Shown: in pieces, positions 17,388 through 38,799 of the stretch
Numbering within the stretch: the first letter of the stretch is position 1
Layout: every line of letters begins with the position of its first letter
From: Thermoproteota archaeon
GTDB lineage: Archaea; Korarchaeota; Korarchaeia; Korarchaeales; Korarchaeaceae
Direction of reading: 5' to 3'
Assembly (NCBI GenBank): GCA_027491735.1
Contig: JAOZGP010000006.1
Span: forward strand, 32,001 to 96,000
DNA length: 64,000 nucleotides
The notes under the pieces: model-generated
Database searches by the model: none
Told to the model about the DNA's origin: nothing
What the model saw: the letters and a program-made list of their open reading frames with translations, nothing else
Program-made: the position numbers and the translations under genes

Positions 17388-17414
17388 GTGTTACTTCTTA
17401 TTACATCATAATAC
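17388..17414. promoter_or_regulatory. NikR-like operator GTGTTA-N15-TAATAC
   Basis: Imperfect inverted half-sites next to a TTTAAG box, just upstream of the metal ABC/FmdE operon. Confidence 0.45.
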
Positions 17415-17519
17415 AGTCTTGAGAGCTCAATTCCTAGAGGATTGATGGAGGAAGCTCATCAGCGGAGCACCTGCGCGTCAGCTTCACTGTCAGATCACCA
17501 AGTAGCCTCAGATCGTTCC

Positions 17520-17700
17520 AGAACCGGAATTAACTCAAGGGGTCGCTGAGCTGGAAGCTGTGTTGAATAACGCCTGTAAGGAGGTTCCTGTAGACAACTC
17601 AGTGGGCTGTGGTGGTAGGGGCGGATGTCATAAAAATGGAGTGATCAGGTTTGTCCTCACTCGTAAAAGGACAGAAGGAGAAGAAGGAGAAAGAAGCTGA
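17520..17700 (+). pseudogene. possible degraded Hsp20 remnant
   Basis: Fragments VAELEAV and HKNGVIRFVLTRKRTEGEEGERS resemble the Hsp20 VAELPGV and YKNGVL motifs; frames are broken. Confidence 0.3.
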
Positions 17701-17904
17701 AGATGGATTATGTGTTCGCTGTCTATCTCATCTCGAGCTTCTGAACAGCTCCATGATCTCCTTAAGCCGTCGATCCCCCTTTCAATCCTCTTTACATTGA
17801 GACACTGGTTTTCTACAGACTTCATGCAAGCCAACCTTCTCTACACCTTCATCGGAACTGTTCTTTTGATCATAGCTGCTCTCTTCTTTGGGAAGGGAAT
17901 CGGG

Positions 17905-17930
17905 AATAAATAAAAATAAAAATAAAAAAG
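17905..17930 (-). terminator. oligo-T archaeal-type terminator after the array-embedded gene
   Basis: The - strand reads as repeated T runs (TTTTTT/TTTTT separated by A) immediately after the stop at 17933. Confidence 0.5.
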
Positions 17931-17932
17931 GA

Positions 17933-18247
17933 TTAAAAGATCCTCCAAGCTTCCTCTTCTGCTTCTTCCTCTTCTTCGTCCTCTTCAAAGAACCTCCATG
18001 TTCCCTTCCGCTCCCACGGAAGGGGCTTCGACTTATTTGATCCATCAGGCTCCGATGCGATCCCCGGCAACAAGCCTCCTCTCTCTGCGTAGTTTCTATA
18101 ACATTCAAAGGAGCAGAAGTGGCTCTCGTCTATGTCTCCGAGGGCACCTCTTCCCTCTCTCACTATTATTACCCTGTCCGGCTCTATCCCGGCTCCACAG
18201 TTGTCGCACACGTACCAGGTCTCTCCAGATATGGTGCGCTTTCCCAT
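17933..18247 (-). CDS. small Zn-finger (CxxC...CxxxC, TRASH/YHS-like) acidic-tail protein inside the CRISPR array
   Basis: 104 aa: YVCDNCG, HFCSFEC, EEDEEEEEAEEE tail. AATATAAG box and GGGGAG upstream; T-rich tract downstream. Confidence 0.75.
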   Translation of the reverse strand: MGKRTISGETWYVCDNCGAGIEPDRVIIVREGRGALGDIDESHFCSFECYRNYAERGGLLPGIASEPDGSNKSKPLPWERKGTWRFFEEDEEEEEAEEEAWRIF

Positions 18248-21200
18248 CTTCTCTCCCCCAACTTATATTCTTGTGGTCAACTTTACTTCCCAACATAGAT
18301 CCTTTCAATCCTCTTTACATTGAGACAAATAAGCTTTTAAAGAGTATAAAAGTATTTCGCAAGTATCTTTCAATCCTCTTTACATTGAGACTTTGTCTGG
18401 CTTTGTTAACCCCCTTCAACTAGGCATGTCTTTCAATCCTCTTTACATTGAGACCTGAAGATCGACGGCGTTGATACAGGCGCCGTTGTCAACTTTCAAT
18501 CCTCTTTACATTGAGACTTGGAGGAGGTGAAACAGCCAGATGACATCCAATTTTGACTTTCAATCCTCTTTACATTGAGACGACATCGTCAAGCCACTTC
18601 AACAGGCTCTCGGCTGGGTCTCTTTCAATCCTCTTTACATTGAGACTAGCACTTCTCCACGAGCTTTTTGGGGAAACATTGGATTTCTTTCAATCCTCTT
18701 TACATTGAGACGAAGATGCTTACCTTCCACGTGGGTGGAAGGTAAGCTACTTTCAATCCTCTTTACATTGAGACCTACCGTTTACAGCGACGTGGATGGA
18801 ACCTTATACGTCTTTCAATCCTCTTTACATTGAGACCTCCGTGGGTTTTACCCTGGACGAGCTCTTTCCAATCTTTCAATCCTCTTTACATTGAGACGCA
18901 GCTAAGGTCCAGCAGGCCATTTCGAAGAAGAGAAGGACTTTCAATCCTCTTTACATTGAGACTTAGCAGTGAAAGACCGAGTTATACAACGTGCATCTCT
19001 CACCTTTCAATCCTCTTTACATTGAGACCGGGAACGAGCTGGAAGTTGATTGAACTTAGACCCTACACCTTTCAATCCTCTTTACATTGAGACAGCGGGC
19101 CCAATTCCCTTTTCCTGTTCAAAAGGGCTGTCTTTCAATCCTCTTTACATTGAGACCCATTGACAACAGGGTTAAGCCTGTCGTAGCGGCCTTAGCTTTC
19201 AATCCTCTTTACATTGAGACCTAGACCATGTCACATTAGCATATATCGTATCTATTGGACTTTCAATCCTCTTTACATTGAGACTACATTTATAGTATTC
19301 TTTCTAATAACAGATTATATGATCTTTCAATCCTCTTTACATTGAGACGATATCTGCATCCTTCTCTTTCTCTTCTTCTACAACTATAAACTTTCAATCC
19401 TCTTTACATTGAGACTTTGATCCAAGGAGCGATTTTCCGTGCTATGCTGTCATCCTTTCAATCCTCTTTACATTGAGACCGAGTTCCGCAGCAGGTACCC
19501 AACAGCGAGTGAAGCAACTTTCAATCCTCTTTACATTGAGACATGTTGTTGTACCTCCGCAGGGTGGCCTCCATGCGGTAACTTTCAATCCTCTTTACAT
19601 TGAGACCCAGCTCTTGGCATGAACTAAACAACAAGGTAGAAAGCTTTCAATCCTCTTTACATTGAGACAAACTCCAGAGGAGGAGGAGAAGGAGAGGAGG
19701 AGAACTTTCAATCCTCTTTACATTGAGACTTTCAGAGAATAAACTGTCTTACTATGAAGTAGAGTCAACTTTCAATCCTCTTTACATTGAGACCGTTCTC
19801 GCTGCTAGAACCATACCTTAAAGCACTCTCCGCTTTCAATCCTCTTTACATTGAGACAGCTTGGATGCAGTGAGAGTCAAGCGAGGAATCTTCTTCTTTC
19901 AATCCTCTTTACATTGAGACTTGGAGACCATATCAGGCAGCAAAGCTTGTCCTATTAAGCACTTTCAATCCTCTTTACATTGAGACGAGCAACCTGGCGC
20001 CGAACCCGGCTCTCAGCTCTATCCCTTTCAATCCTCTTTACATTGAGACATTGAGACAGTGGTTATACCGCGAAACTATACCTGCTGGCACTTTCAATCC
20101 TCTTTACATTGAGACCTGCTGAAGGAGATACTGCCTTCTCCTCTTTTTCATCTCTTTCAATCCTCTTTACATTGAGACTCAAAGTCGAAGCCATTGTGCC
20201 ACACGGGATCCACTTCTCCTTTCAATCCTCTTTACATTGAGACAGAGAGAGGAGCTATTCTGTCTCAGGAAAGGACTGGAACTTTCAATCCTCTTTACAT
20301 TGAGACTCTCGACAGCTTGCCTGTCCACCTCGGCTGTTGCGTTGCCTTTCAATCCTCTTTACATTGAGACCATGGGACTCACTGACTTCGACATCTTCCA
20401 AATAGACTTCTTTCAATCCTCTTTACATTGAGACATTTAAGTGTGTGCATAAAATAGTAGGGTGAGAAAATGGCTTTCAATCCTCTTTACATTGAGACCT
20501 AGGAACTTAGCACGGAATTCTACTAGAACCGGTAAAGCTTTCAATCCTCTTTACATTGAGACCTCCTGATAGCCAACCAACCACACCCTTGTATACATCC
20601 TCTTTCAATCCTCTTTACATTGAGACTTCGAACCCAATCACTATGGACCTCAATAAAGCCGAAATCCCTTTCAATCCTCTTTACATTGAGACAACAATGT
20701 CTACCGGTGGAAGGATGGGGACGCACATAAACTTTCAATCCTCTTTACATTGAGACCCAGTCCTCGAGCTCCATCTTCACCTCCTTGATCTTTTCTTTCA
20801 ATCCTCTTTACATTGAGACAGACTGGCACAATGGCTTCGACTTTGAGACCTGACTCTCCTTTCAATCCTCTTTACATTGAGACCTGCGTGGAGATGAACT
20901 CCTCGAGGATGCCCGGCTTCCGGCCGGGTGGAATGTGCTTTCAATCCTCTTTACATTGAGACCAGAAATGGGGAAATAAAACTTGAGTTTCATGAAGGCA
21001 ACTTTCAATCCTCTTTACATTGAGACATAAAATAGAGGAGAGATCATTTTCAGAAGAAGATATAAGACTTTCAATCCTCTTTACATTGAGACTTACGAAA
21101 AAAAGGATATAGATTTACTCTACGAAAGCGGCTTTCAATCCTCTTTACATTGAGACTAATTACGCTAATGTAAAAGGAAAGGAGCTTGCTCTTACCTTTC

Positions 21201-24200
21201 AATCCTCTTTACATTGAGACTGGGGTACTTATGACCCCGAGACCTCTTGTCGTTTTAGCTTTCAATCCTCTTTACATTGAGACGTATGTTAAGAAGAATC
21301 TGGTAGTCTGCTAAGTTCAGGTCTTTCAATCCTCTTTACATTGAGACTTTTGTTATAATACATCTTTTAAACAACTATTACTGGATCTTTCAATCCTCTT
21401 TACATTGAGACCTCTCAGCGTGGAGATTTCGTTTATCTCCGCAATTTCAGCTTTCAATCCTCTTTACATTGAGACCTATGCTTGGATGAGATCTCTCCCA
21501 AAAAGAGGGATTTTCTTTCAATCCTCTTTACATTGAGACTTAGAACTGGCGGCTTAAGTAAGTTTAAGAGATCAAATCTTTCAATCCTCTTTACATTGAG
21601 ACCCGTGGGCGCCTGGTCGAGGTAGTGTGGGAGGACTATGAACTTTCAATCCTCTTTACATTGAGACTTCAACGAGCCATATTTCTGTATCGAGCTGCCT
21701 GCTATCTTTCAATCCTCTTTACATTGAGACCATGAAGAAATCCAGGCATAATCACGCTCCAACATTTAGCTTTCAATCCTCTTTACATTGAGACTTAAAG
21801 TTTGGAGGGATGGCGATGACTGAGGAAAACTTCCCTTTCAATCCTCTTTACATTGAGACAAAACATTATACTACATCGGAGGCGCTGAGGGAGTTATAGC
21901 TTTCAATCCTCTTTACATTGAGACTGAACTACTACTACAGGGAGATCATGGCTAAAGGGTCTTTCCTTTCAATCCTCTTTACATTGAGACCTTCCATTCC
22001 TGAGCACCAGAACGAGTACATTCAGGATCTTTCAATCCTCTTTACATTGAGACCTAAACACCCTGCTGTGGTCAGGAGATGGGAGCTATTCCTTTCAATC
22101 CTCTTTACATTGAGACCAAAGAGGTAAGATGGGCCCCATGACGGAGAGTATATTCTTTCAATCCTCTTTACATTGAGACTGAAGGTGTGTCCCCGATGCG
22201 AAAAAGTCTACAGTTACATCTTTCAATCCTCTTTACATTGAGACAGACTGAAGGTACTCGCTGTAGTATCTTGCCTTCTTTTCCCTTTCAATCCTCTTTA
22301 CATTGAGACGGACATAACCGACTTCATCCAGAACCTGCCCTCCGAGATCTTTCAATCCTCTTTACATTGAGACTACCTCTAACAGTAATGGCCATAGTCC
22401 TCGGTATTATCGCTTTCAATCCTCTTTACATTGAGACATTACGTTTACATCGCTCAAATTGAAAACACCATATAACTTTCAATCCTCTTTACATTGAGAC
22501 CTCTAATTTCAACATCAGTAAGACCATACGACGAGAACTTTCAATCCTCTTTACATTGAGACGGCCACAGCACCTCCACTATTTTGCCAAACAGAGCGTT
22601 TCTTTCAATCCTCTTTACATTGAGACCAGACCAACTCACCGTATTCAGGCACCGGGGGATCGCACTTTCAATCCTCTTTACATTGAGACGGTGAGAAGCT
22701 GTGGTCCGATTGGGGCCAGCCAATGCGCTTTCAATCCTCTTTACATTGAGACATAAGTCCCTTGGAGAGAGGTCAGGTTGAACCATACATCTTTCAATCC
22801 TCTTTACATTGAGACATGGCACTATACATGATTGTAATGCTCTTTGCTATTTACTCTTTCAATCCTCTTTACATTGAGACCTTAAAAACATAGTGCTTGA
22901 TAACATACGAGAAATAGACTTTCAATCCTCTTTACATTGAGACATTCTCCGCAAGGCCCTGACGAAGGGCCTACCACAGCCCTTTCAATCCTCTTTACAT
23001 TGAGACTTTCCCTTACTGTTGGGATCTCGACGGGGAAGACATCCCCTTTCAATCCTCTTTACATTGAGACAAATCTTAGGGGAAAGAGTGAGCGCTAGCT
23101 GGGGGGTATACTTTCAATCCTCTTTACATTGAGACGAGATGTCACGGGTTCTGTTCAAAGAACCCAGAGCGTTCCCTTTCAATCCTCTTTACATTGAGAC
23201 ACACTAGTTTCCTTCCCTTGTGCGTCATTAAAGAACGTTCTTTCAATCCTCTTTACATTGAGACAGATCGACATCGAGCCAGTTACCTTTTCTGTCCCCC
23301 CTTTCAATCCTCTTTACATTGAGACAAGGAGCCAGTGAGGATATGGCTTGAAAAGAACATTATCTTTCAATCCTCTTTACATTGAGACGCACCGTTTTTC
23401 GAAACTTCAGACATAGTCGATCTTATCTTTCAATCCTCTTTACATTGAGACCTACCTGTGGGTCGGTAGGAGGGAATAGTCCCGAGGACCTTTCAATCCT
23501 CTTTACATTGAGACTAATGTACTGTATTGGAACGCTACCGTTCACGAGAGCGTTCTTTCAATCCTCTTTACATTGAGACTCGACCCCCTCGTTAAGCTGA
23601 GGAGGGGGTGGCTCGTCAACTTTCAATCCTCTTTACATTGAGACTAGTGGAACATGGGGTAGCTATGATCCCGAAACCGACACTTTCAATCCTCTTTACA
23701 TTGAGACTTACTTCCCGCGGGGAAGTGAATACCTTTCATGTCGCATTCTTTCAATCCTCTTTACATTGAGACGTGCCCTACAGGGGGAAAGCTGGCGTAG
23801 AAGTGAGCAAAGCTTTCAATCCTCTTTACATTGAGACTCATTTTGAGGTAATGCAAGCACTTGCCCCTAGGCCACTCTTTCAATCCTCTTTACATTGAGA
23901 CATACCGTGAAATTGAGAACAAATACAAACAGCTCTATTTCTTTCAATCCTCTTTACATTGAGACTCCGGGGAGCTTGCTGAGGTTGTCTGGGAGGACTA
24001 TAACTTTCAATCCTCTTTACATTGAGACGTTAACTTCGTCCCAGCTTTTGGCCGAGATGTGAGTTTCCCTTTCAATCCTCTTTACATTGAGACCAATGTT
24101 GCTATTAGATATTATGTAGTCTATTGCTTTAGATCTTTCAATCCTCTTTACATTGAGACAGAAACAAGATGCCACTCTGCCGTGGACACCGCTAAGATCT

Positions 24201-26909
24201 TTCAATCCTCTTTACATTGAGACGGGTACATACGGTTCCTCCTGGCAAGGCTCAGCTCTCTGCTCTTTCAATCCTCTTTACATTGAGACTAGCGTATCCC
24301 CTTCTTATACTAAAGGCGGTGGAGGATGACTTTCAATCCTCTTTACATTGAGACTAGCACATCTTCCCAGTTTATGCTATCCATCTTCTCACTACTTTCA
24401 ATCCTCTTTACATTGAGACAAAGTACAAGATTGGCCTTTTAACATTACAGGAAGCTGTCTTTCAATCCTCTTTACATTGAGACACCACATATGGCAATTC
24501 GTGTGGGGGCAGCAGGTTCGTCTTTCAATCCTCTTTACATTGAGACGTTTTGACTTTGACCATCGTCAATCGCTTAAAATAGCCTTTCAATCCTCTTTAC
24601 ATTGAGACTTTTAGATTATAGGCTTCAGATCCTCCTTCTTTATCTCCTTTCAATCCTCTTTACATTGAGACGAAGAAATAAAAAACAAAACGGCCGTTGG
24701 GGGCTTCCCAATCTTTCAATCCTCTTTACATTGAGACATGTCCCTCTTCCAATCCTCCAAAGTATAAGCTGAAAGTCTTTCAATCCTCTTTACATTGAGA
24801 CTTGAGGAGAGCCTACGTAAGGGGGCTAAAGGACATTAACTTTCAATCCTCTTTACATTGAGACAAACGGCCAACCCGCCGTATTCAGGCGGTAGAAGAA
24901 AAACTTTCAATCCTCTTTACATTGAGACAAGAGGAGATCAGCTCGTCTTTTGTGTAGTTAGAAATTCTTTCAATCCTCTTTACATTGAGACCGAGGATGC
25001 CCGTCTCCCGAGAGGCTGGAACATAGGGTACTTTCAATCCTCTTTACATTGAGACAAAATAAGTAAAAAGATATATGAGACTAGCGAAAAAGGAAACTTT
25101 CAATCCTCTTTACATTGAGACGTAAGATTTATATATGGCCAAAACACTAATATACTATTGGCTTTCAATCCTCTTTACATTGAGACTTCCAATAAAATAC
25201 ATTGAAGAGCTCACAGAGTATTTTAACTTTCAATCCTCTTTACATTGAGACGTTGCTCCACCTTCCTTATATAACAGCTTCGCTATTAACTTTCAATCCT
25301 CTTTACATTGAGACTAAGTGTGTGCATAAAATAAGTAGGTGGTGAAAACATGACTTTCAATCCTCTTTACATTGAGACTTACTGGCAGGGCTTTCTCTTT
25401 AGGGAGGGGAAGTGAAAACTTTCAATCCTCTTTACATTGAGACCTCCAGCTTATACCCCTTAGCTCAAGGCAAAAGCAGGACTGCTTTCAATCCTCTTTA
25501 CATTGAGACATAAAACCCAAGAAGCTCTGATCTAATTTTTTATTTTTCTTTCAATCCTCTTTACATTGAGACTGAACAAATATATTAAATCGGACACACT
25601 AAACTACATCTTTCAATCCTCTTTACATTGAGACCAGTTACCTTTTCTGTCCCCCGCTCCGCGGGGGTAGAGACTTTCAATCCTCTTTACATTGAGACAC
25701 CTCCATTTACTGCCCACAGCCTGTCATGGGAAGGAGCCTTTCAATCCTCTTTACATTGAGACTCGCTGAAGTGCCTAATGTACTTCAGCCAAGTTAAGAG
25801 CCTTTCAATCCTCTTTACATTGAGACCCAACGAAACTATCTGGATTTACAAAGATATCTTTTACACTTTCAATCCTCTTTACATTGAGACAATTGGAGAG
25901 GAAATAAAATACCTTAAGGACCTCTTCACTTTCAATCCTCTTTACATTGAGACATTCGTTTTGTTGAGAAAGAAATAGGAGAGGAAGAAGGCTTTCAATC
26001 CTCTTTACATTGAGACCGACATTTAAGGTAGGAGACATAGACCCGCTCTCGATATCTTTCAATCCTCTTTACATTGAGACAGGTCCCATAGCCGGCATCA
26101 ATGGATCAACATTGCTGGCTTTCAATCCTCTTTACATTGAGACTTCCATAAGTATAGTGCATTAGGCCAAAGATCGCTGAAGCTTTCAATCCTCTTTACA
26201 TTGAGACAAAAATAAGCGAAGGAAGAAAAGTATTTTCTAAAACACTCTTTCAATCCTCTTTACATTGAGACAGACGATGACTGAGCAAAACTCTTCTTCT
26301 CCTTTTTCTTTCTTTCAATCCTCTTTACATTGAGACATACTCTACCTTCACGGAAAAACAAAAGATGTTTGGGGTCTTTCAATCCTCTTTACATTGAGAC
26401 CTGAGGATTGAGGCAGGACTGGACTCAAACACTTTGGGCTTTCAATCCTCTTTACATTGAGACCGTAGCAATTCTTCCCCTTGAGGACGAGAGGTTCAAA
26501 TCCCTTTCAATCCTCTTTACATTGAGACAAAATTTTGAAATGCCATGCAACTAATTTACCCACTGCACTTTCAATCCTCTTTACATTGAGACAAAAAGTA
26601 AACTTCTTATTTCTCCTGCCTCCTTTTTTCTTTCAATCCTCTTTACATTGAGACTGAAGAACAAGGTTCAGAGCTTCTTAAGGGAAATACACTTTCAATC
26701 CTCTTTACATTGAGACTAAGATGAAGACACAAAAGCACGGGTGAAAAAATGGGAGCTTTCAATCCTCTTTACATTGAGACATCTCTATGAGTGGTGGCCA
26801 GGACAATACCTCATATACGCTTTCAATCCTCTTTACATTGAGACTTAGAGCATAACCCAGAAAGGGTTAGTAAAGGACATGCAGCTTTCAATCCTCTTTA
26901 CATTGAGAC

Positions 26910-27190
26910 ATATAGTACTCTAACAATTATCAAGCTGATTTCATGACTCTTCTGTCCCTTTACTCTTACATCGAAACTAACAAAAACTTTACGTAGAAAG
27001 ACTTATTTGTGATTAGCTGTTTGTTCGAGTAAAAACTTTTGTATGACCAAATCATCTACTTCGAAAGAGGGAAAAGATGCTTAGGATGTTCGAGTCTAAT
27101 TCATCACATAATACTTTATTTTTGGTAAATACACACGTCAGGAGCCCACAAATTTCATTAAAAGATTCGTCCTTCAGTTGGTGGGAGCTG
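26910..27190 (-). promoter_or_regulatory. CRISPR leader / divergent cas1 promoter region
   Basis: AT-rich non-coding stretch between the first repeat and cas1; AAAAACTTT occurs twice. Confidence 0.75.
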
Positions 27191-27193
27191 TCT

Positions 27194-29373
<2,180 letters not shown>

Positions 29374-29399
<26 letters not shown>

Positions 29400-29916
29400 A
29401 GAGGTTGAGGAATACTTCTTCTGCCCGATGCTATTCTACTACAAAAACTTTCTCGGAATGGAGAGGCCTAAGGGCCTCTGGTCCGATCTCGGCAGAGAGA
29501 TACAGGAAGAGATCTCGAAGTTTGTTAGGAGCAAGTTCAAGGTTGTGGACAGTCAGGTACTCCTCAAGAGCGAGAGACTTGGCGTTGTCGGTAAAGTAGA
29601 CTTCCTAGTTGAGGTTGATGGTAAGGTGCTCCCTCTGGAGATCAAGTACAGCAGAAGGATGAGACCCTGGTGGAGGTACACACTGGTCCTCTACGGGATG
29701 CTTCTCGAGGATCTGATAAAGAGACCCGTGAAGTCCGGTTTCCTTCTCCTGAAGAAAAGGATCCTCAGAATCGACTTCAGAGATGAAGACAGGAGGTATG
29801 TCACGCAAGCAATAGAGAAGTGCAGGAGGATAATGAATGGTGACGTTCTACGATCCTTCACCTCTAGGAGCTGTGAGAACTGTGACTTCAGGTCAATGTG
29901 CCTCGATATCAGCTGA
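29374..29916 (+). CDS. cas4: Cas4 exonuclease
   Basis: Motifs EYFFCP, GKVD, PLEIK, CENCDFRSMC (Fe-S cysteines). Confidence 0.93.
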
Positions 29917-30820
29917 CAACCTTGTACCACCCAAAGCCAAAGCTACTCCTCTTTCCCACATGAGATAACTGACAGAAGGCCAGAGATTTCCTGATCCATG
30001 AGGTGGGTGCTCCAGAGCAGACCATATCTCCCAAGAGAAAAACTTGTTCTTCCCCCTTATACCTGAACCGTACCTCCCTTAACGAGCTCTCGATGATCTT
30101 GATCCTCTCAGCGCTCTTGAGAACCTCCTCAGCGTTAAACCCCGGCTCTTTCATGAGGTACTGATGATATATTGCTGAGAGCTTCCTCGACATGAAGGAC
30201 ATCAGATCTCTGAAGCTTGGATCTCTTAGAAGCCGCCCTTCTCTGATTAACCTGAAGGGAGTCAGGAACCTCAACATGAACATCCTTCCAATTCTGATCG
30301 AGAGATCTCTCTCTGAGATCCAGCTCCTCGTTTTGTACATTTTTCCATTTTCATAAAATATTTCTCTCTCTCGTCTGAATGGGTTCTCAACAGCAACTCT
30401 CCTCAGGACAAGCCTCCCCTTCTTCCCCTTCACACCAAGACCATGCCTGCACATGTCCTTCACGGCCATGAACAGGGGGTTCTCGAAGGAGACAGCATCT
30501 CCAAAGAGAACTAGGGAGAAGGTGAGTGAATCTCCCTCGGAGAAGTCCATCTCTGATGTGAGAGGGGGTTTTATCACGTAAGGTTTTGTAAAACCACTTA
30601 TCTTCTTGAGAACCAGGCCCTTGGATGGGGTCTTATAGAGGTAGCCGTAAGGGCACCTGAAGATCATTGAACATAGATCGCACTTTCCATCCTCCCTCAG
30701 ACAGAACTTCCTCTTCAGGTGGAGTCCTATGACCCCCCTGATGAGGTTCCCCTTCCAGGGTGGGAGAGTGGCCCTCTCCTCGAACTCAATTTCGAATTTA
30801 TAAAACCTACATATCCTCAA
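29909..30820 (-). CDS. cas6: Cas6 pre-crRNA endoribonuclease
   Basis: C-terminal G-rich loop HVGKRSSFGFG, FLTPFRL, N-terminal Cys cluster. Confidence 0.9.
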   Translation of the reverse strand: MRICRFYKFEIEFEERATLPPWKGNLIRGVIGLHLKRKFCLREDGKCDLCSMIFRCPYGYLYKTPSKGLVLKKISGFTKPYVIKPPLTSEMDFSEGDSLTFSLVLFGDAVSFENPLFMAVKDMCRHGLGVKGKKGRLVLRRVAVENPFRREREIFYENGKMYKTRSWISERDLSIRIGRMFMLRFLTPFRLIREGRLLRDPSFRDLMSFMSRKLSAIYHQYLMKEPGFNAEEVLKSAERIKIIESSLREVRFRYKGEEQVFLLGDMVCSGAPTSWIRKSLAFCQLSHVGKRSSFGFGWYKVVS

Positions 30821-30910
30821 GTCCCCACCCTGCTCAGTTCTGAATCAGGATCTTAAATAATTACATGATGCCCTGTGGACCATCTGTTTCTATGTCTTGG
30901 ATACCAATTC

Positions 30911-31624
30911 TCAGGCTTGTGTGTCAGCTATGATGTCTGAGCAGTGAGTCCGTGCGCAGATAAGAACCTTGAGGAAGTCCTCCACAACACTACCGAAAAC
31001 TGTATGAGTACTTCGATTTTTTGAACCTTCATAATCACAAATAACTGCTATGAGCAGGAGTCGTAGGGCTTTCTTGGCAAAACTTCCATGAAATGCATGC
31101 CAAATCTCGCTAATTATATCTTTTACCTTTTCTGCTGCAGCATTCATGTCAAGATTTTTTAGCACATCGACAACGTTTAACACGCATCTCTTATCAGCAT
31201 AATTTTCTAGGATTTCAGCTAATTCGTGCAGAACTTCATCGTTTATTCTTATTTGGATTTTCTTAAGCTTTTCCAATCTATTTTTCATTTTCATCGCGTG
31301 ATGATGAAATATTATTGGAAATAAATATAGCAATTCTTGCTCCTGCACTCTCTTTTCATAAACATTGATGAATTCTTCCTCAAACACCTTCCAGAAAACG
31401 TAGGCTGATACAAATTCATGTCCCGGGAAGCTAAGCTCATCGCTATCTTTCTGATAGACTACTTTTCCTATATCGTGAAAGACTATAACCCTCTCAACGA
31501 ACACTTCATCGAATTCATCGAGCCATAGCTTAGTTTTCTTAATCTCACTCAATGCCTTCAAGCATTCATCTATATGCTCCTCAAGTGTCTGACTTTTATC
31601 ACCTTTCTTAAAGGCGTAGATCAT
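30911..31624 (-). CDS. cas3'': Cas3'' HD nuclease
   Basis: Motifs TLEEH, FHDIGK, GHEF, FHHHAM, CDY. Confidence 0.92.
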   Translation of the reverse strand: MIYAFKKGDKSQTLEEHIDECLKALSEIKKTKLWLDEFDEVFVERVIVFHDIGKVVYQKDSDELSFPGHEFVSAYVFWKVFEEEFINVYEKRVQEQELLYLFPIIFHHHAMKMKNRLEKLKKIQIRINDEVLHELAEILENYADKRCVLNVVDVLKNLDMNAAAEKVKDIISEIWHAFHGSFAKKALRLLLIAVICDYEGSKNRSTHTVFGSVVEDFLKVLICARTHCSDIIADTQA

Positions 31625-33567
31625 TTCTCACACCTCAAGCCCGTTTCGCTATCGTAAGATACAGCAGCAGTAAAGGCAATCGGTGAAACAAGTCTTTTCT
31701 TATCTTCAATCCAAATTCCTCTCAAAAGCATTTTAGGGCTTAAAAAGACCTTCTTTTTCTCAAACACAACCCTATCATTTTCATCGACATAAAGAAAACC
31801 AGTAATATCTAAAGATCTCAGCATCCTTGCAGATACCGGTATGCAGAGCTTGGAAATAAGCTTGCTAAGCTCTTTCTCATTCTTTCCAACGAACTTATTA
31901 AGATGTTTTATCGGAACTATGTTAACCTGATACTCCTCTCTCACGAAGCTACCTTCAAGCCTGAGCAAAATTTCAACAGCATTCTCAGGACTTTCTAGAT
32001 GATAGTGTATTCTCAACAAATCCTCTATTGCCTGAATATTGCAGAGGTCATCTTCTGAATATACATTATCCAAGAGTTCCTTATAGCCCTTTACCTCAGC
32101 TGTTCCTTCAGGGATGTGCACGTTCAGCTTGTAGTTTCTAAGCCATTTGAGAGTTCTCCGCGTTAATTCATAGTCGTAAACTTTATACATTGGAGTAGCA
32201 ATCGTCAGTCTGTCCTTCTTCCCTTTCCACTCGTTGAGCTTCTTGAAGTTTACATGTTCAAACTTCCTTTTGAGTATTTCGACGCATCTCTCAAAGATTT
32301 CGTCACTTTTAGTGTCAATACAAATCCATTTCACGTTCCTTGCTTTTCTGTTTAGCGAAATTGACAGCTTTAAGTACTTATCCTCGGCCTCATACCAAAT
32401 CACTATTTTTCCTCTCTCCTCATTGTATCTCAAAAATCTGCCCAAACGTTGTACAAGTGAATTAGCTGGAGCAATTTCCGTTATAAAAAGATTTGAGCTT
32501 ATATCAACTCCAGCCTCTATTACTTGCGTCGCTATTATAAGATAGTTATTTCTAAACTTCTTCAGCTTTTCGCTTTTCTCTCTTCTATCGGACTCTGTAA
32601 ATCTTGAATGTATTAGGAGGATATCATCAAAAGTTCCGCAAATTTCCTCATCGCTCCTCACTACTAAGTAAAAGTTTATAGCGTCTTCCACAGTGTTGAA
32701 AACGATTAAAACTTTTCTAAGCTCATTACAGTGCTCTTTAATCAACTCCTTTAATTTTCTATATTTCTCATTCTCTCTCAGCGGGTAGATTTCTATTTCA
32801 TACTCTTTGCTCATCCTCTCCTTAACGAAATCTTCGTCGAAGTAGTTGTAAGAATTGAAGTCTGAGCTTTTCGAGAATGTTATGAATACAATCTTATCCG
32901 AATACTCCTGCAAAGAATCGATCAGGATTTTCTTAAAAGCTTTTGGAAGAGTTGCCGACATCAAAACGAGTTTTTGATCGAACCTTATAGCAATCTTAAG
33001 CAAAGCTATCAAAAAGTTTAGAGATTTGGTTGAATCTGCAAGAAGGTGAACTTCGTCCAAGATTACATTGGATAGTACAGCAGACGCCCAAGAGAACATG
33101 TAATGACCGAAACTGAAAGATATACCTTCATAAGCTCTCAAAGCCTTTTCAAAATCCTCTGGAGCTATTCCGAATAGAGTTAGTGCGAGGGTATCAACTG
33201 TTGTTAAAGTTATGGGTTTGATCAAGTATCTTGAATCAGGATGGTGCATGTATCTAACTCCTATAATTTTTTCATCGCAAATCGCATTCTTTCCTCTCTT
33301 TCTTCCGATAAAAGTGTCGTATTGATCCTCGATAAGCGTTCTCAGGGGGTAGCATACTATCGCTTTCAGCTCTTCACATGCAGAGTAAAGGGCTAAAGTG
33401 GCTGAAATGGTTGATTTTCCATAGCCTGTTGGTGCTTCGATGATGAAGATGTTTTTGTCGTTCCAGTGTTCTGTGATCTTATCTAAGGCGAACTTCACGA
33501 AGGGTCTTGGGGATTTGAAGTTCCATTGCTTACAAACTTTCCTTAGGTAGCTATTCCAATCTGCCAT
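31621..33567 (-). CDS. cas3': Cas3' helicase
   Basis: Motifs APTGYGKS, DEVH, MSAT, QVIEAGVDI, QRLGR. Confidence 0.95.
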   Translation of the reverse strand: MADWNSYLRKVCKQWNFKSPRPFVKFALDKITEHWNDKNIFIIEAPTGYGKSTISATLALYSACEELKAIVCYPLRTLIEDQYDTFIGRKRGKNAICDEKIIGVRYMHHPDSRYLIKPITLTTVDTLALTLFGIAPEDFEKALRAYEGISFSFGHYMFSWASAVLSNVILDEVHLLADSTKSLNFLIALLKIAIRFDQKLVLMSATLPKAFKKILIDSLQEYSDKIVFITFSKSSDFNSYNYFDEDFVKERMSKEYEIEIYPLRENEKYRKLKELIKEHCNELRKVLIVFNTVEDAINFYLVVRSDEEICGTFDDILLIHSRFTESDRREKSEKLKKFRNNYLIIATQVIEAGVDISSNLFITEIAPANSLVQRLGRFLRYNEERGKIVIWYEAEDKYLKLSISLNRKARNVKWICIDTKSDEIFERCVEILKRKFEHVNFKKLNEWKGKKDRLTIATPMYKVYDYELTRRTLKWLRNYKLNVHIPEGTAEVKGYKELLDNVYSEDDLCNIQAIEDLLRIHYHLESPENAVEILLRLEGSFVREEYQVNIVPIKHLNKFVGKNEKELSKLISKLCIPVSARMLRSLDITGFLYVDENDRVVFEKKKVFLSPKMLLRGIWIEDKKRLVSPIAFTAAVSYDSETGLRCEK

Positions 33568-34477
33568 ACCCCAAACCTGTTTTAGCCCCGACCCCAAATT
33601 CTCTTAAAGCTGAAATTAAAATCGATTTAGCTTTATCCAAAAGTTCCCTCCTACCATCTCTCGAAGCTACGGCGAATTGAAATTCAATACCTTTGGGGAC
33701 CGTAAGGAAGAATATAGGATTCGGCTGATGCCAGTCGCCTGGCGCTTTTTCGAGTTTTTCTCCTAGTTCTTTCTCGCTTGCGGTGTAGTATGGTTGATAG
33801 TGTGGATTTATTACGTCGAGTTCTAAAATCGGTTTTTGGCTAAGCTGCTCAGGAGTTGGAAAGACGTCAAAGAAGATTATCTCTCCTTCTTGCTTTTGAG
33901 TTCCGAAAATCCTTCTCAGAACGGTCATCTCATTAAGTATATCATCAGATACATCCAGCTTCAGCTTATCTTCAATGGTCTTTTTAACTACTACATTGTT
34001 CCTCTCATCCTTTGCTGGATTTTCCAGAGCATCTTGAATTCTTTTAGCCAACTCGAAGAAATCTACACCGCAATCCATCAATCTACCAGCCAGATTCAAT
34101 ATGGCGTAATGCTTTGCAACGCCTTTCAAAGCCGAACCGGGGATGTATGGAACCCCGTAATTTCTGTGAAGTCTTATAGATGTCTCATAAACGCTCTCAT
34201 CCCCCAAGCCGACTATTAAGCGGGATTTCGTTTTCATTGTAAACGTTTCCCCAACGCTTTCCCAGAGGTTTTTCTGAAGCTCAAAGAATCTTTCATATCG
34301 CTCAATTTCTGGCAGTTTAATCTGAAAATTGAATTCAGCTATTTTTGGCTTCTTAGTTCCGTCTCTCTCCTCAACAAATGGAGTAAACTTCTCGATCTTT
34401 AACGATAGATTATCTATCTCATCCCAATGATTTTTTATGATTTCTTTAAGATAAGCTGGAACAAAAAATTCAGTCAT
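33551..34477 (-). CDS. cmr6: type III-B RAMP Cmr6
   Basis: Motifs RLIVGLG, GVPYIPGSALKG, DVINPHY, PNPIFFLTV, GVGAKTGLGYG. Confidence 0.95.
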   Translation of the reverse strand: MTEFFVPAYLKEIIKNHWDEIDNLSLKIEKFTPFVEERDGTKKPKIAEFNFQIKLPEIERYERFFELQKNLWESVGETFTMKTKSRLIVGLGDESVYETSIRLHRNYGVPYIPGSALKGVAKHYAILNLAGRLMDCGVDFFELAKRIQDALENPAKDERNNVVVKKTIEDKLKLDVSDDILNEMTVLRRIFGTQKQEGEIIFFDVFPTPEQLSQKPILELDVINPHYQPYYTASEKELGEKLEKAPGDWHQPNPIFFLTVPKGIEFQFAVASRDGRRELLDKAKSILISALREFGVGAKTGLGYGRLE

Positions 34478-34977
34478 TCTTCTTCCTCCTTTTCGAGCAT
34501 AGCATCTGCAAACCTCTTCATCCAATTAAGAAGATTTATAGCTTCTCTTGTTAACTGCATCATCAATTGAACGTTCGCCTCATCACATATGAATTTAAGA
34601 GGATCCCTTCCCTTTGTAAGACCTCTCCCATTATTCGCTTTCTTAGCGAGCCAGTCCGAGATTTGGTAGAACAGATATGCGTAGGCTATTCGTTCAGCTT
34701 TATTTTCAAATGCTTTTTCTCCTCTCTCAAGCCTTTTTAGTTCTTCTCCAACCTTTGTGTATTCAGTCTCCCTTATCTTCATCTTTGAGAGATAAAACGC
34801 CAACGCATTCGGCAAACCATTGGTGAGGATTAGCACGGGCGCACTCTTAACGTATGAAGCATATTTTCTTTGAATTTCTTTTTTGTTCATGAAATCACTG
34901 ACCTCCTTAACCTTTGCAACCGCCTCGTATGCGAACTTGGCTCTATCCTGCTCAAGGCTTCTCATTTCCATCACCAA
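34474..34977 (-). CDS. cmr5: type III-B small subunit Cmr5
   Basis: Motifs RSLEQDRAKFAY, ILTNGL, WMKRFADAML. Confidence 0.93.
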   Translation of the reverse strand: MVMEMRSLEQDRAKFAYEAVAKVKEVSDFMNKKEIQRKYASYVKSAPVLILTNGLPNALAFYLSKMKIRETEYTKVGEELKRLERGEKAFENKAERIAYAYLFYQISDWLAKKANNGRGLTKGRDPLKFICDEANVQLMMQLTREAINLLNWMKRFADAMLEKEEEE

Positions 34978-35899
34978 ACCTTAGCTTAACGAAACCCTTT
35001 CCGACTGTTTCGTTTCCTCCAATTTGGATGAATTTGCTGTCAAATGCTCTTAGCCCCTGAATAACCCCATCAACAGTAGATAGCTCATCGATTTCTTTCC
35101 TCGGCTTTCCTACCGCTATGACTGAATACAGCAACGTGTCGGATGGTAAGTATTCCTCGTACCACAGAGCCCCGGGCTCAACAGTTCCCCTCTCAGTGTT
35201 TATTTTAACTCTTGCAAGTATCTCGGTAGCAGTCTGAACGAGATTAGAGAAGACATCATTCGGAATTATTACCACTCTGCTCTCATCGATTTCTATGGGA
35301 GAGATTTCTCCGATCACGCTCATAAGTTGTGAGAGATCCCTATTTTCTGCTTTCAAAACTACATCCTCTATTACCATGTTATTGTTATCTATGATTATCG
35401 AGGAGTTTTCGGATACCAAAGCTTTATCTACAATTGAACCGATGTTGTAATCAAGCTTCTTACCTATAAGCTCTAAATCTCCCTTCAGCTTATTCAAAAC
35501 TAATGGACAGGTTACATAAGCAAAAACTCCCTTCAAACTCCTAACCGGAAACAGCAGAACTTTGGCATCTCCGACGCTTATAGTCCCTGCATGCTCATGT
35601 GCTCGCTCTGTTGGAGGACCGAAAATAACGTTTGTTTTTGGCATTTCTTCTAATGCTTTTTCAAGCTCTTTCTTTTTATTATTGTCAGTCTCCTTTTCTA
35701 TTTGCTCTCTAATCTGTTTTTTCTCAAAATCTGCATAAGCTCTCCTCAAAACACCCTTCAAGCTCTGCCCCCAGATCACTGGAAAGCCCGTGTGCCTTTC
35801 CCTCTGAATCGGCAAATCTATAACGCTTAACTCCGCTCCACTTCCGGCATGCACTGGGGTTACGCTATACAAACCCAAAATCAGGGCTTTCTCAAACAT
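34952..35899 (-). CDS. cmr4: type III-B backbone RNase Cmr4
   Basis: Motifs PVHAGSG, IDLPIQRERHT (catalytic Asp present), LWYEEYLP, QIGGNETVGKG. Confidence 0.96.
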   Translation of the reverse strand: MFEKALILGLYSVTPVHAGSGAELSVIDLPIQRERHTGFPVIWGQSLKGVLRRAYADFEKKQIREQIEKETDNNKKKELEKALEEMPKTNVIFGPPTERAHEHAGTISVGDAKVLLFPVRSLKGVFAYVTCPLVLNKLKGDLELIGKKLDYNIGSIVDKALVSENSSIIIDNNNMVIEDVVLKAENRDLSQLMSVIGEISPIEIDESRVVIIPNDVFSNLVQTATEILARVKINTERGTVEPGALWYEEYLPSDTLLYSVIAVGKPRKEIDELSTVDGVIQGLRAFDSKFIQIGGNETVGKGFVKLRFGDGNEKP

Positions 35900-36236
35900 T
35901 GCTATCACCCTCAGCCTCGTCTAGCAATCTCTCAAAAATTGGTTTTATTTTCGGAGTATCCTTTTTGACTGTCAACCAAACCACCTCCAAATCCACACCA
36001 AAATAAGCACGGATTAACTTATCCCTCATTCCTGCGATAGCTTTCCACAGAATTTCGGGATGTTTCTCTTTCAGCTCCTTAGAGATGTTTTTAACTGCCT
36101 CACTGATTATTTCTAAAGCCCTAACAACTGCATATTGGGTTTTTACATCATTCAAGAATTCGTTAAAAGTCATACCTTTAACAAAGTCTTCAACCTTCTC
36201 AATAGCATCCATAACATAATTTCTGTCGCTCCTCAT
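35892..36236 (-). CDS. hepT: DUF86/HepT-like HEPN ribonuclease toxin, catalytic His replaced by Arg
   Basis: AVVRALEIISEA, W..IAGMRDKLIRAYFGVD; the family consensus is RxxxxH. Confidence 0.85.
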   Translation of the reverse strand: MRSDRNYVMDAIEKVEDFVKGMTFNEFLNDVKTQYAVVRALEIISEAVKNISKELKEKHPEILWKAIAGMRDKLIRAYFGVDLEVVWLTVKKDTPKIKPIFERLLDEAEGDSNV

Positions 36237-36252
36237 ATATAAACTACCTCTT

Positions 36253-36522
36253 TTAAGACGTTCTCTTTAATCCTTGTTTCAAAGTCTTCTTCATCACTAA
36301 ATCCACTTTAACACCCAAAATTTCTGTTAAATAGTTCTCAAGCTCTACGAATTCCAGCAGTGTAGGGGTTTCTTCAAACTCGACTAAGATGTCGATGTCG
36401 CTTCCCTCTCTCTGCTCTCCTCTCACATAAGAGCCGAATAAACCCATTTCCTTAACTTTAAATTTTTTTAATATCTCTTTGTGTTTGGCTAAAGTTTCTT
36501 TTATTTCCTCTAGGTTTTTCAT
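36253..36522 (-). CDS. mntA: minimal nucleotidyltransferase (MNT) antitoxin with C-terminal frameshift
   Basis: [19 protein letters not shown] (GSx10DxD), LGVKVDLV. Confidence 0.87.
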
Positions 36523-37748
36523 TTCAACACCTCCAATTTGGGAAATCTGCACGCCCTCAAATCCTTCTCAAAGAACTTTCCGTATATCTTTTCAACATAA
36601 CCGAGCAGATATCTGTAAAACTTCTCTGCATTATCCCCTTTAGCCATGGCCACAAATCCATGTGCTAGTATCGATTTGTTTCTTTTCGTTAGCAGATCTC
36701 TCAGTTTTTCATCGTTTTTCATTTCGATTGCCAGATCTATGCCTAACTCAGAAAGTAACTCAAGTTTACTCATAACCCCCAATCTGAGCACAATCTTTCC
36801 ATCTTTAAATTCGGCAAATTTCTCAAACTTCCTTAAGATCTCTCTGCGTTTGCTGTCATCTTCTGATAGAACGATCGGATCGTCGTATCCTCTCTCTTTC
36901 AGCATTATCTGAGCTATAACCTCAGTTGCCCTGTAGAGTCTCGCAACCGCATCATCGTAAAGTCCTGTCTCTATCCTCCTTTTCGCATTTTCCATTAAAT
37001 CGAGAAGCTTCATTTTATAGTACTCGACCGTGGCCTTCTCCTTACTCTTAAGTCTTCCGAGAAATTCGATATTGGATTTTACGTGATTTTTATCGACCAA
37101 ATCTACCGACTTCCAGGATTCTTTCAGCATTTCGAAAGCCTTAAAATGGTTAAACCTATCCCAAAGTTCGTAAGCTTTTAAAAATTTTATCAGTTCATCC
37201 TTATAATCTAAAGCTCTAAGGTTTTGGGCTTCAAGTATTGCGGCATCGAAGTTATACACGTTGAACAGCTTTGCGATCTTTTCAATAGTTACCATATCTT
37301 TAAACTGATAAGGCTCGAAAATGGAAATTCTTTCAAGGCCTCTCCTAACGATTCCACCTTTTCTTTCCCCGGCGATACATATTAAGCGGGTGTTCACGAA
37401 TATGGCAGCTGAAGCCATTGCAGAACTCATCGTTTTCGTGCCATACGTGTAGTTGATGAAAAGATCTCGCTCTGAGTAATTCTTTAAAACTTCGAGCATA
37501 GTTCTAAAACATAAGTTAAAATCGTCGGGGTTGGAGATTTCTACCAATTTTGTATCTATATCGGTCTTCGATTTTATCAGATCGACCATTTCTTTCGTCT
37601 CTTTTGTGTAAAACAGAACGATCTTATCTGGCTTAATAGTTTTAACGATCTCATTTATGAAACCGTCGACCATTAATTCGAGAGTTTCTCTTCTTTCTTC
37701 TTCGGTTCTTCCTACGCCAGTTCCAGTCGTGGAAACTAAAACTCTCAT
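36519..37748 (-). CDS. CARF-HEPN cOA-activated ribonuclease (TIGR02710/Csm6-Csx1-like)
   Basis: N-terminal CARF ([16 protein letters not shown]), [11 protein letters not shown]-terminal [13 protein letters not shown] motif. Confidence 0.88.
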
Positions 37749-37750
37749 TT

Positions 37751-38794: not shown

Positions 38795-38799
38795 GCTAA

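What the first reader, a model, noticed from the sequence alone, without database searches (positions are those of the whole stretch)
17779..18326. 498-bp 'giant spacer' between two perfect CRISPR repeats carries a complete gene
Seen: perfect repeats at 17779-17803 and 18302-18326 enclose 498 bp instead of ~39 bp. The insert holds a self-contained unit in the array's transcription direction: an AATATAAG box, GGGGAG, a 104-aa CxxC/CxxxC Zn-finger protein with a poly-Glu tail (17933..18247) and an oligo-T terminator. It also holds the truncated 3' end of a convergent hydrophobic protein (WFSTDFMQANLLYTFIGTVLLIIAALFFGKGIGNK*, 17806-17913). Inference: this looks like a cut-out piece of a virus or plasmid genome, captured by aberrant Cas1-Cas2 integration or by spacer-protospacer recombination. 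The array would then act as a gene-capture and expression platform, and Cas6 cleavage would release an mRNA-sized 'crRNA'. A small acidic Zn protein is also a plausible anti-CRISPR or regulator.
Basis: partly seen in the sequence, partly recalled or inferred. Interest (0 to 1): 0.8.

Follow-up and report, generated by a model that had tools for sequence, protein, structure and literature searches.

The report
Gene-bearing oversize last CRISPR spacer
The oldest slot of a large archaeal CRISPR array holds about 500 bases of gene-carrying DNA instead of a 39-base spacer, a rare irregularity with a published precedent and no sign of a new gene-capture system.

Summary
There are 136 identical 25-nt repeats at 17779-26909. 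Spacers are 36-42 nt (one of 54), and one unit is 498 bp (17804-18301). An AT-rich leader, cas1, csa1 and cas4 lie at the high-coordinate end, so the array is read on the minus strand and the 498-bp unit is the last, oldest one.

The unit carries a real 104-aa four-cysteine zinc-finger gene with an acidic tail. Only two relatives turned up in 1.84 billion representative proteins, and none in 40 related genomes. An SD-like motif precedes the gene and a strong oligo-T stop follows it. The "truncated" convergent ORF has no homolog and could instead be a complete 29-aa peptide.

No donor, spacer match or sequencing run was found, so neither the origin nor the assembly could be tested directly.

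Related genomes, one of them closed, also have gene-bearing DNA bracketed by intact repeats at array ends (4,736 bp and 756 bp), with genes antisense to the crRNA direction. A review records an 899-bp plasmid fragment between two repeats in S. solfataricus.

Best reading (0.5): a border-precise capture of non-core, probably mobile-element DNA, tolerated at the trailer. The gene-capture/expression-platform and anti-CRISPR ideas are unsupported.

The parts
17779..17803 (-). Terminal (trailer-most) CRISPR repeat, identical to all the others. The crRNA sense is on the minus strand and ends in ATTGAAAG.
   Evidence: Orientation comes from the leader and cas1 at the other end and from the leader motif.
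17804..18301 (.). The 498-bp unit in the last spacer slot. It is unique in the genome and has no terminal inverted repeats.
17806..17913 (+). ORF X. It is 35 codons open from the repeat border, hydrophobic, and includes its stop. An internal ATG at 17824 gives a complete 29-aa single-helix peptide. Whether it is a truncated gene, a small gene or chance is undecided.
   Evidence: no homolog; codon score 0.134 per codon, exceeded by 5.9% of open antisense windows.
17900..17932 (-). Oligo-T tract (TCC T6 A T5 A T5 A TTTATT) directly after the stop of the zinc-finger gene. It is a likely archaeal terminator.
   Evidence: for the sequence. Its function is inferred from general knowledge of archaeal oligo-T termination (recalled).
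17933..18247 (-). Gene Y (P0001), 104 aa including its stop codon in these coordinates. It has a four-cysteine FCS/TRASH-like zinc finger (C14, C17, C45, C49) and an acidic C-terminal tail ending in W-R-I-F.
   Evidence: Cys ligands and the tail Trp are invariant in 3 sequences; DUF7576 at 23.1 bits, below the cut-off of 27.
18253..18259 (-). GGGGGAG, a Shine-Dalgarno-like motif ending 5 nt before the ATG.
   Evidence: Its function is inferred.
18263..18301 (-). A 12-codon open frame running from the repeat border to a TAA that lies inside the 'AATATAAG box'. It may be the 3' end of an upstream operon gene; it is too short to test.
18302..26909 (-). Regular array of 135 identical repeats and 134 spacers (36-42 nt, one of 54 nt at 20884-20937).
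26910..27200 (-). AT-rich leader. Next to the first repeat it carries the lineage-conserved motif ATATAGTACTCTAACAAT. The end coordinate is approximate.
   Evidence: the motif is shared with leaders in G013, G003, G002 and G006; G019.
27077..29916 (+). Adaptation genes: cas1 (27077-28201; the true start is probably later), csa1 (28195-29130) and cas4 (29374-29916).
29909..46018 (-). cas6, a cas3-type helicase, the Cmr (III-B) genes, a Csm6-like HEPN protein and csa2/cas7 (I-A).

Best explanation
The 498-bp unit is a genuine, oversize last 'spacer' of a 135-unit array that serves type I-A and III-B effectors. It is a piece of non-core DNA, most likely cut from a virus or plasmid. It carries one intact small zinc-finger gene, and possibly the ends of two neighbouring genes.

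It entered by an event that was exact at both repeat borders. I favour exchange between old spacers and matching protospacers on the element, so that the element's DNA replaced the oldest spacer or spacers. Integration of an over-long fragment by Cas1-Cas2 at a leader-proximal repeat early in the array's history is nearly as likely.

It persists at the trailer because there its terminator silences no downstream crRNA, and because the last unit is rarely lost by repeat-repeat recombination.

Today the gene is probably read either from a weak promoter of its own or from read-through pre-crRNA. In the second case Cas6 cuts the upstream repeat and the SD-like motif drives translation. Either way the transcript stops at the oligo-T tract before the terminal repeat.

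Shown: the structure, the direction of the array, the reality and rarity of the gene, and its absence from relatives. Inferred: the foreign origin, the mode of entry, and expression.
For: Structure and polarity:
- 136 identical repeats; one 498-bp unit at the end opposite the leader and cas1.
- Both borders coincide exactly with repeat ends. There are no terminal inverted repeats and no transposase. This is what spacer-linked events give and what transposition or end-joining would not.

The gene:
- It is real. Three sequences at 68-82% identity keep all four Cys and the tail Trp.
- It is extremely rare. Only these 3 sequences occur in 1.84 billion representatives and in the 5.8-billion word index, with a single query and with a profile.
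- Of 40 related genomes, 39 have no match. The one match (G006) has E 7.6e-4 and 4 internal stops.
- It is not next to the orthologous znuA in 2 of 2 relatives inspected.
- The nearest Atlas clusters are small viral hypothetical and MYM/FCS zinc-finger proteins (0.92-0.93). Two PHROG families give weak hits (E about 5e-4).

Not a collapsed second array:
- The conserved leader motif sits beside 6 of the 10 repeat flanks compared and is missing from the unit.

Gene-bearing DNA between intact repeats recurs in this lineage:
- The closed genome G013 has flank-R-4,736 bp-R-leader, and both repeats share a private variant.
- G043 has R-756 bp (a PIN-like gene pair)-R.

Literature:
- An 899-bp pNOB8-like plasmid fragment lies between two repeats of S. 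solfataricus locus F (PMC4390879, section 4.5, read in full).
- Trailer units are the most stable part of an array (PMC8047081, passages).
Against: - No donor was found: viral contigs, genome contigs, metagenome contigs, phages and plasmids were all blank.
- No spacer matches the unit in the own array or in the 42 other genomes of the phylum.
- Composition is host-like. The unit is 47% GC and the gene 52%, against 49.5% for the genome and 44.6% for the spacers. The gene's codon score falls at the 25th percentile of host genes.
- In G013 the genes between the two repeats are ordinary chromosomal genes. G010 has them in the same order without any repeat. So repeat-bracketed DNA in this lineage need not be foreign.
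- The terminal repeat is perfect, whereas the terminal repeats of two relatives' arrays are degenerate. This points to a remodelled trailer, not a simple old acquisition.
- The genome is a 41-contig, 88%-complete assembly, and the junctions could not be checked against reads.
Confidence: 0.5

Rival explanations
1. Assembly chimera. The assembler joined array spacers to a co-assembled mobile-element contig through short shared sequence, so no single molecule has repeat-unit-repeat.
For: The genome is a metagenome-type assembly of 41 contigs at 87.85% completeness. No sequencing run could be listed, so the junctions are unchecked.
Against: Both junctions fall exactly at repeat ends. A 9-kb array of 136 identical 25-nt repeats was resolved, which requires words or reads longer than the repeat, and the same evidence would then support these two junctions (inference). 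The identical protein is on record on 4 contigs. A closed genome of the sister genus has the same topology with 4,736 bp, so the structure exists in nature.
Confidence: 0.1
2. Native trailer DNA with a stray repeat. On this reading the zinc-finger gene is ordinary host DNA beside the array. The extra repeat at 17779 is then a remnant of a second, collapsed array or of trailer remodelling, with no import of DNA.
For: Codon use and GC are host-like. Solitary repeats are common in relatives. In G013 the DNA between two repeats is colinear with repeat-free G010. A zinc-finger gene lies upstream of a ZnuA-type metal transporter on the same strand.
Against: The unit lacks the leader motif that accompanies the leader-attached solitary repeats. 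The gene has no credible homolog in 40 relatives, nor in one genome for each of 185,579 species. The znuA orthologs in G019 and G016 have TusA-like and IscU-like genes upstream, not this gene. The DUF7576 hit is below its cut-off.
Confidence: 0.15
3. Repeat-flanked cassette moved by repeat-repeat recombination. A mobile element carrying one or two host-like solitary repeats or a mini-array recombined with array repeats and left the cassette behind.
For: A review records the proposal that solitary repeat units on viruses could integrate into arrays by homologous recombination (PMC8616872, section 16, passages). Solitary repeats lie at odd places in relatives, for example inside a tRNA cluster in G013. 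A repeat-like 15-mer (13 of 15) in inverted orientation overlaps the gene's stop codon.
Against: A single crossover would insert a whole element, not 498 bp. No element with such repeats was found. The 15-mer is not significant once the choice of sub-window is allowed for: 0.0115 uncorrected, and the full-length match has P 0.36.
Confidence: 0.1
4. Dedicated gene-capture and expression platform. On this reading the array is used to acquire and express genes, and Cas6 releases an mRNA-sized crRNA. The protein would be an anti-CRISPR or a regulator.
For: The gene lies in the crRNA sense, with an SD-like motif but no well-placed TATA box. The TATA-like octamer is centred about 18 nt before the ATG and contains the stop of an upstream frame. 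That fits translation from read-through pre-crRNA.
Against: There is one such unit among 135. In the two comparable units of relatives all genes are antisense to the crRNA sense. A T6-A-T5-A-T5 tract stops transcription before the terminal repeat. The protein matches no anti-CRISPR, defence or named family.
Confidence: 0.05

Closest known systems
899-bp pNOB8-like plasmid fragment between two repeats in CRISPR locus F of Sulfolobus solfataricus (Garrett et al. 2015 review, PMC4390879, section 4.5, citing their ref. 37; the section was read, the primary paper was not)
   Same: A crenarchaeal-type array with a several-hundred-bp piece of non-spacer DNA sitting between two repeats, in a setting where such irregular units are otherwise very rare.
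   Different: There the fragment matches a known conjugative plasmid. Here no donor is known. Here the fragment is the last unit and carries an intact, conserved gene in the crRNA sense. I could not see where in locus F the 899 bp lies.
Solitary repeat units and mini-arrays on viruses and plasmids, with their proposed recombination into host arrays (PMC8616872 section 16 passages; PMC10651486 abstract only)
   Same: Host-like CRISPR repeats outside regular arrays, with repeats acting as recombination sites between elements and arrays.
   Different: Those repeats lie on the mobile element. Here both repeats are part of, or continuous with, a chromosomal 136-repeat array, and no element is known.
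Ordinary Cas1-Cas2 spacer acquisition (type I-A, Cas4-assisted)
   Same: The product has the same form: new DNA flanked by two complete copies of the repeat, with exact borders.
   Different: The length is 498 bp against 36-42 nt (one of 54), which lies far outside the ruler of the integrase. The PAM and donor cannot be checked.
Insertion sequences or MITEs in CRISPR arrays (for example ISC1359 in a matching spacer; PMC4390879, section 4.5)
   Same: An array interrupted by hundreds of bp of DNA.
   Different: There is no transposase, no terminal inverted repeats, no target duplication other than the whole repeat, and no halves of an old spacer recognisable at the ends.
FCS/MYM/TRASH-type four-cysteine zinc fingers; Pfam DUF7576
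   Same: C-x2-C ... F-C-x3-C spacing. There is a weak DUF7576 match (23.1 bits) and the nearest Atlas clusters are named MYM/FCS.
   Different: The score is below the curated cut-off. The long acidic tail with a conserved terminal Trp is not part of those families. The structure model was too poor to compare folds.

Membership tests
Regular CRISPR spacer of this array | Length within the array's range | tested here: not met
   498 bp, against 36-42 nt for 133 spacers and 54 nt for one.
Regular CRISPR spacer of this array | Flanked on both sides by complete consensus repeats with exact borders | tested here: met
   both repeats are 25/25 identical to the consensus.
Regular CRISPR spacer of this array | Derived from a protospacer with the system's PAM on a mobile element | not testable with these tools
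   No donor sequence was found.
IS element / MITE insertion | Terminal inverted repeats, short target duplication, transposase or derivative | tested here: not met
   No inverted repeat lies at the unit's ends. The ORFs encode no transposase.
Leader of a second, collapsed array | Lineage-conserved leader motif (TACTCTAACA plus a CTATTTAAC-type box) next to the repeat | tested here: not met
   The motif is present beside 6 of 10 repeat flanks compared and absent from the unit. It is also present in the G019 leader.
Pfam DUF7576 | Score at or above the gathering cut-off (27 bits) | tested here: not met
   23.1, 18.2 and 16.5 bits for the three family members. In 41 genomes no match is over the cut-off.
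C2H2 zinc fingers (hits in PDB and the representative library) | Cys2-His2 ligands within one roughly 23-residue finger | tested here: not met
   The alignments span two consecutive fingers and pair the query's two Cys pairs with the Cys pairs of different fingers; there are no His pairs in the query.
Anti-CRISPR protein | Homology to a known Acr, linkage to an Aca or anti-defence locus, or shown inhibition | not testable with these tools
   There is no named hit in Pfam, PHROGs, NCBIfam or PADLOC. No Acr library is on hand and there is no viral context.
Mobile-element fragment between two repeats (S. solfataricus locus F type) | Several hundred bp between two intact repeats | tested here: met
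Mobile-element fragment between two repeats (S. solfataricus locus F type) | Sequence match to a known plasmid or virus | tested here: not met
   No match in IMG/VR contigs, phage records or plasmid records. There are only weak feature-level resemblances to viral small zinc-finger proteins.

The most novel reading that the evidence does not exclude
In this small archaeal phylum the type I-A adaptation machinery, or recombination at its repeats, can place hundreds to thousands of bases of DNA between two copies of a repeat. On this reading arrays repeatedly begin with, and keep at their trailer, gene-bearing units (498 bp here, 756 bp in G043, 4,736 bp in G013). The unit here would be a captured mobile-element gene that is expressed from the pre-crRNA after a Cas6 cut, making this a natural route of CRISPR-mediated gene capture.
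Probability: 0.12. Interest if true: 0.75.

Novelty: new member of a known kind. Interest (0 to 1): 0.35.

Why it matters
If the structure is real, as seems likely, it is a clean natural case of long DNA entering a CRISPR array with repeat-exact borders. That bears on two questions: how strict the length ruler of Cas1-Cas2 is in vivo, and whether spacers serve as homology for recombination with the elements they target.

The recurrence of gene-bearing, repeat-bracketed units in three genomes of one small phylum, one of them closed, offers material for testing this by comparative genomics and in vitro integration.

The zinc-finger protein itself is an orphan family of three sequences. Its only claim to interest is its location.

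Tried and rejected
- **Sequencing runs:** none was listed for 17300-18420, and no RNA holder was listed.
- **Donor searches, all blank:**
  - IMG/VR by protein.
  - Genome contigs and metagenome contigs by profile.
  - An exact flank-plus-repeat pattern in metagenome contigs.
  - Phage and plasmid records by tblastn (the 4 plasmid hits have E 0.3-0.6).
- **Spacer matches to the unit:** none in the own array (longest exact match 12 nt). None in the 37 other genomes of the order at E<=1 beyond low-complexity hits. None in the 42 other genomes of the phylum at E<=1e-4.
- **ORF X:**
  - A 41-aa stretch that includes 6 repeat-encoded residues found nothing among longer proteins.
- **Distant hits of P0001** to long eukaryotic proteins and to PRDM9 in PDB are C2H2 arrays and spurious.
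- **Structure:**
  - Structure prediction was not ready twice.
  - The third try gave a model with mean pLDDT 45.2, so no fold search was made.
- **'Gap' in the G003:C25 array:** an apparent 3.2-kb gap came from the 3-mismatch limit; with 5 mismatches the array is continuous.
- **End-composition bias of spacers,** as a possible test for integrase processing of the unit's ends: none exists.
- **Length argument:** 498 bp is close to 8 spacers plus 7 repeats, but about three quarters of all lengths fit some whole number of units, so this says nothing.
- **Metal-related native gene idea:** the gene is not conserved next to znuA orthologs.
- **RNA:** Rfam gave only sub-threshold CRISPR-DR45 hits on the repeats. 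The RNA fold of the 3' part is no more stable than shuffles.
- **Bacterial-type scan:** the promoter/terminator scan does not apply to archaea.
- **Earlier notes of this scan:** nothing for this genome or for look-alike stretches.
- **Supplementary files of papers** were not consulted.
Full report
**The observation.** The 25-nt repeat occurs 136 times without a single mismatch, always on the + strand, from 17779 to 26909; none is expected by chance. Of the 135 intervals, 133 are 36-42 nt, one is 54 nt (20884-20937) and one is 498 bp (17804-18301). The giant interval is bounded by complete repeats at 17779-17803 and 18302-18326.

**Direction and place in the array.**
- Beyond the last repeat at 26909 lies an AT-rich stretch, followed by cas1, csa1 and cas4 on the + strand.
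- Further on lie cas6, a Cas3-type helicase, a Cmr (III-B) module, a Csm6-like protein and csa2.
- The sequence next to that last repeat carries a motif (TACTCTAACA, then a CTATTTAAC-type box in relatives). The motif recurs next to leader-side repeats in G013, G003, G002, G006 and G019.
- On the minus strand the repeat ends in ATTGAAAG, the usual 8-nt crRNA tag (that this is the usual tag is recalled).
- The array is therefore read on the minus strand from about 27000 downward, and the 498-bp unit is the last, oldest unit.
- To its left lie 405 bp without a convincing ORF, then a ZnuA-type ABC transporter operon and arginine-biosynthesis genes, which are core chromosome.

**What the unit holds.**
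- GGGGGAG, ending 5 nt before an ATG.
- A 104-aa ORF (17933-18247).
- Directly after its stop, the tract T6-A-T5-A-T5.
- On the + strand: a frame open from the other repeat border for 35 codons, encoding one hydrophobic helix. It also contains an ATG at 17824 that would give a complete 29-aa peptide.
- The unit has no terminal inverted repeats and occurs once in the genome.

**The gene is real but orphan.**
- The word-index search of 5.8 billion clusters found only two relatives, at 82% and 68% identity. Both come from metagenome assemblies.
- Reading all 1.84 billion representatives with HMMER added nothing credible. The other 35 hits are long eukaryotic proteins. The two I scanned are KRAB/C2H2 arrays, and the PDB alignments show the query's two Cys pairs laid on two different fingers.
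- A profile of the three sequences again found only those three.
- The four cysteines, the F-C motif and the Trp near the C-terminus are invariant.
- Pfam gives DUF7576 at 23.1 bits, below the cut-off of 27. PHROGs gives two unnamed families at E about 5e-4. NCBIfam and PADLOC give nothing.
- The protein-language Atlas places it nearest to small viral hypothetical proteins and MYM/FCS zinc-finger clusters at 0.92-0.93, which is a lead only.
- The structure model was too poor to use (pLDDT 45).
- I read it as a single FCS/TRASH-like zinc finger with an acidic tail. Its function is unknown.

**Native or imported?**

*For import:*
- Of 40 related genomes, none has a credible homolog. One match has E 7.6e-4 with four stops.
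- The scan of one genome for each of 185,579 species found none.
- The orthologous znuA genes of G019 and G016 have TusA-like and IscU-like genes upstream, not this gene.
- The unit lacks the leader motif, so it is not the leader of a second, collapsed array.

*Against, or neutral:*
- No donor was found in any collection.
- No spacer of this array, or of the other 42 genomes of the phylum, matches the unit.
- GC and codon use are host-like.
- ORF X scores like a weakly expressed host gene: 0.134 per codon, the 22nd percentile of real 35-codon windows, exceeded by 5.9% of open antisense windows. It has no homolog. 'Truncated gene' therefore remains a guess.

**Relatives show the same kind of structure.** I followed up solitary repeats listed. 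This is not a random sample.

*Closed genome G013:*
- It has a leader-attached single repeat and a second repeat 4,736 bp away on the trailer side. Both carry the same private variant.
- Between them lie an ABC-2 transporter, PadR, a methyltransferase and a decayed ATPase gene, all antisense to the crRNA direction.
- Its 96%-identical relative G006 keeps the first repeat. Of the second it keeps only the last 10-11 bases, next to 1.66 kb of other DNA.
- G010, at 85% identity, has the transporter genes in the same order without any repeat. Such units can therefore hold ordinary chromosomal DNA.

*Other relatives:*
- G043:C49 has R'-756 bp-R-51 nt-R. The 756 bp hold a complete two-gene pair, whose second gene is weakly PIN-like, again antisense.
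- The G019 array ends with an 80-nt spacer.

*Count:*
- Seven trailer ends could be seen whole.
  - Own genome: the main array.
  - G013: the main array, the cas1-side mini-array and the orphan unit.
  - G003:C25, G019 and G043:C49.
- Three of them have last units of 0.4 kb or more, one has 80 nt, and three are regular. G006 is not counted because it is a near-copy of G013.
- The terminal repeats of G003:C25 and of the G013 main array are degenerate. Here the terminal repeat is perfect.

**Literature.**
- The Sulfolobales review (PMC4390879, section 4.5, read in full) says that irregular units are very rare in crenarchaeal arrays. It records an 899-bp fragment matching a pNOB8-like plasmid between two repeats of S. 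solfataricus locus F.
- A general review (PMC8616872, passages) records the proposal that virus-borne solitary repeats could recombine with array repeats.
- A review of spacer dynamics (PMC8047081, passages) explains why trailer units are stable and why terminal repeats are usually polymorphic.
- My searches for 'spacer-protospacer recombination' and 'oversized spacer' with CRISPR found no paper in the held library.
- That phage-spacer recombination has been shown in staphylococci is recalled, not seen.

**Mechanism.**
- Borders exact at both repeats are the signature of events tied to the spacer-repeat structure. One possibility is an exchange within spacers that were themselves integrated exactly. 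The other is an integrase-type insertion that duplicates the repeat. Transposition or end-joining would not give this.
- I cannot separate the two from one genome. I favour exchange with a targeted element (about 0.3) slightly over integration of an over-long fragment (about 0.25). Repeat-mediated cassette transfer comes at about 0.1.
- The trailer position is best explained by survival. The unit carries a strong terminator, so anywhere else it would cut off the crRNAs downstream of it. The last unit is also the one least exposed to loss by repeat-repeat recombination.
- Because of that terminator, a transcript would rarely reach the terminal repeat. 'Cas6 cuts on both sides' is therefore unlikely. 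A Cas6-made 5' end on read-through RNA, followed by SD-dependent translation, is possible but untested.
- The relatives argue against a purpose-built expression platform: only 1 of 3 units has its genes in the crRNA sense.

**Verdict.**
- The unit is a real and unusual but not unprecedented irregularity.
- I put the chance that it is a true genomic structure at about 0.85-0.9.
- I put the chance that its DNA is imported at about 0.65.
- No evidence points to a special function.

Noticed in passing
G013 locus L040:4985-9770 (G013:C1, about 419984-424769): A closed genome of the sister genus has leader-R*-4,736 bp-R*. Both repeats carry a private one-base variant, and ordinary genes lie between them (ABC-2 transporter, PadR, methyltransferase, a decayed ATPase gene). 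G006 has the second repeat cut down to its last 10-11 bases next to 1.66 kb of other DNA. G010 has the genes but no repeats.
   Followed up: partly
G043 locus L061:1782-2663: The arrangement is R' (one-base variant)-756 bp-R-51 nt-R. The 756 bp hold a complete 75-aa plus 122-aa gene pair (the second weakly PIN-like, below the Pfam cut-off), antisense to the crRNA direction. No leader motif is seen beside the last repeat.
   Followed up: partly
G013 locus L042:5818-5842: A solitary CRISPR repeat sits inside a tRNA gene cluster, between tRNA-His (5717-5789, +) and tRNA-Ala (5853-5926, -).
   Followed up: no
Leader-attached single repeats: G003:C76:12443, G002:C103:6582, G013:C1:419984, G006:C6:14139: Four 'empty arrays', each a bona fide leader motif with just one repeat. 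Three of them carry the same GAGGC end variant, although they lie in two genera.
   Followed up: partly
window 20884-20937: This is the one 54-nt spacer in an array whose other regular spacers are 36-42 nt.
   Followed up: no
window 20179-20218 vs 20820-20858, and other pairs within 20000-25700: Several spacers share 19-24 nt exact stretches with other spacers of the same array, some in opposite orientation. This suggests overlapping protospacers taken from the same targets.
   Followed up: no
window 17925-17939: On the minus strand, overlapping the zinc-finger gene's stop codon, lies a 15-mer that matches 13 of 15 bases of the start of the + strand form of the repeat; it is therefore inverted relative to the array. 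P is 0.0115 before correction for the choice of sub-window, and the full-length match is not significant.
   Followed up: yes
G019 locus L059:18481-18610: The last spacer of a 113-repeat array is 80 nt. Its second half begins with the first five bases of the repeat, as if a repeat had been partly replaced.
   Followed up: no
window 17791-17798: Read on the + strand, the repeat contains TTTACATT about 27 nt before the ATG of the possible 29-aa peptide at 17824. This is the spacing of an archaeal TATA box from a leaderless start. It is speculative.
   Followed up: no
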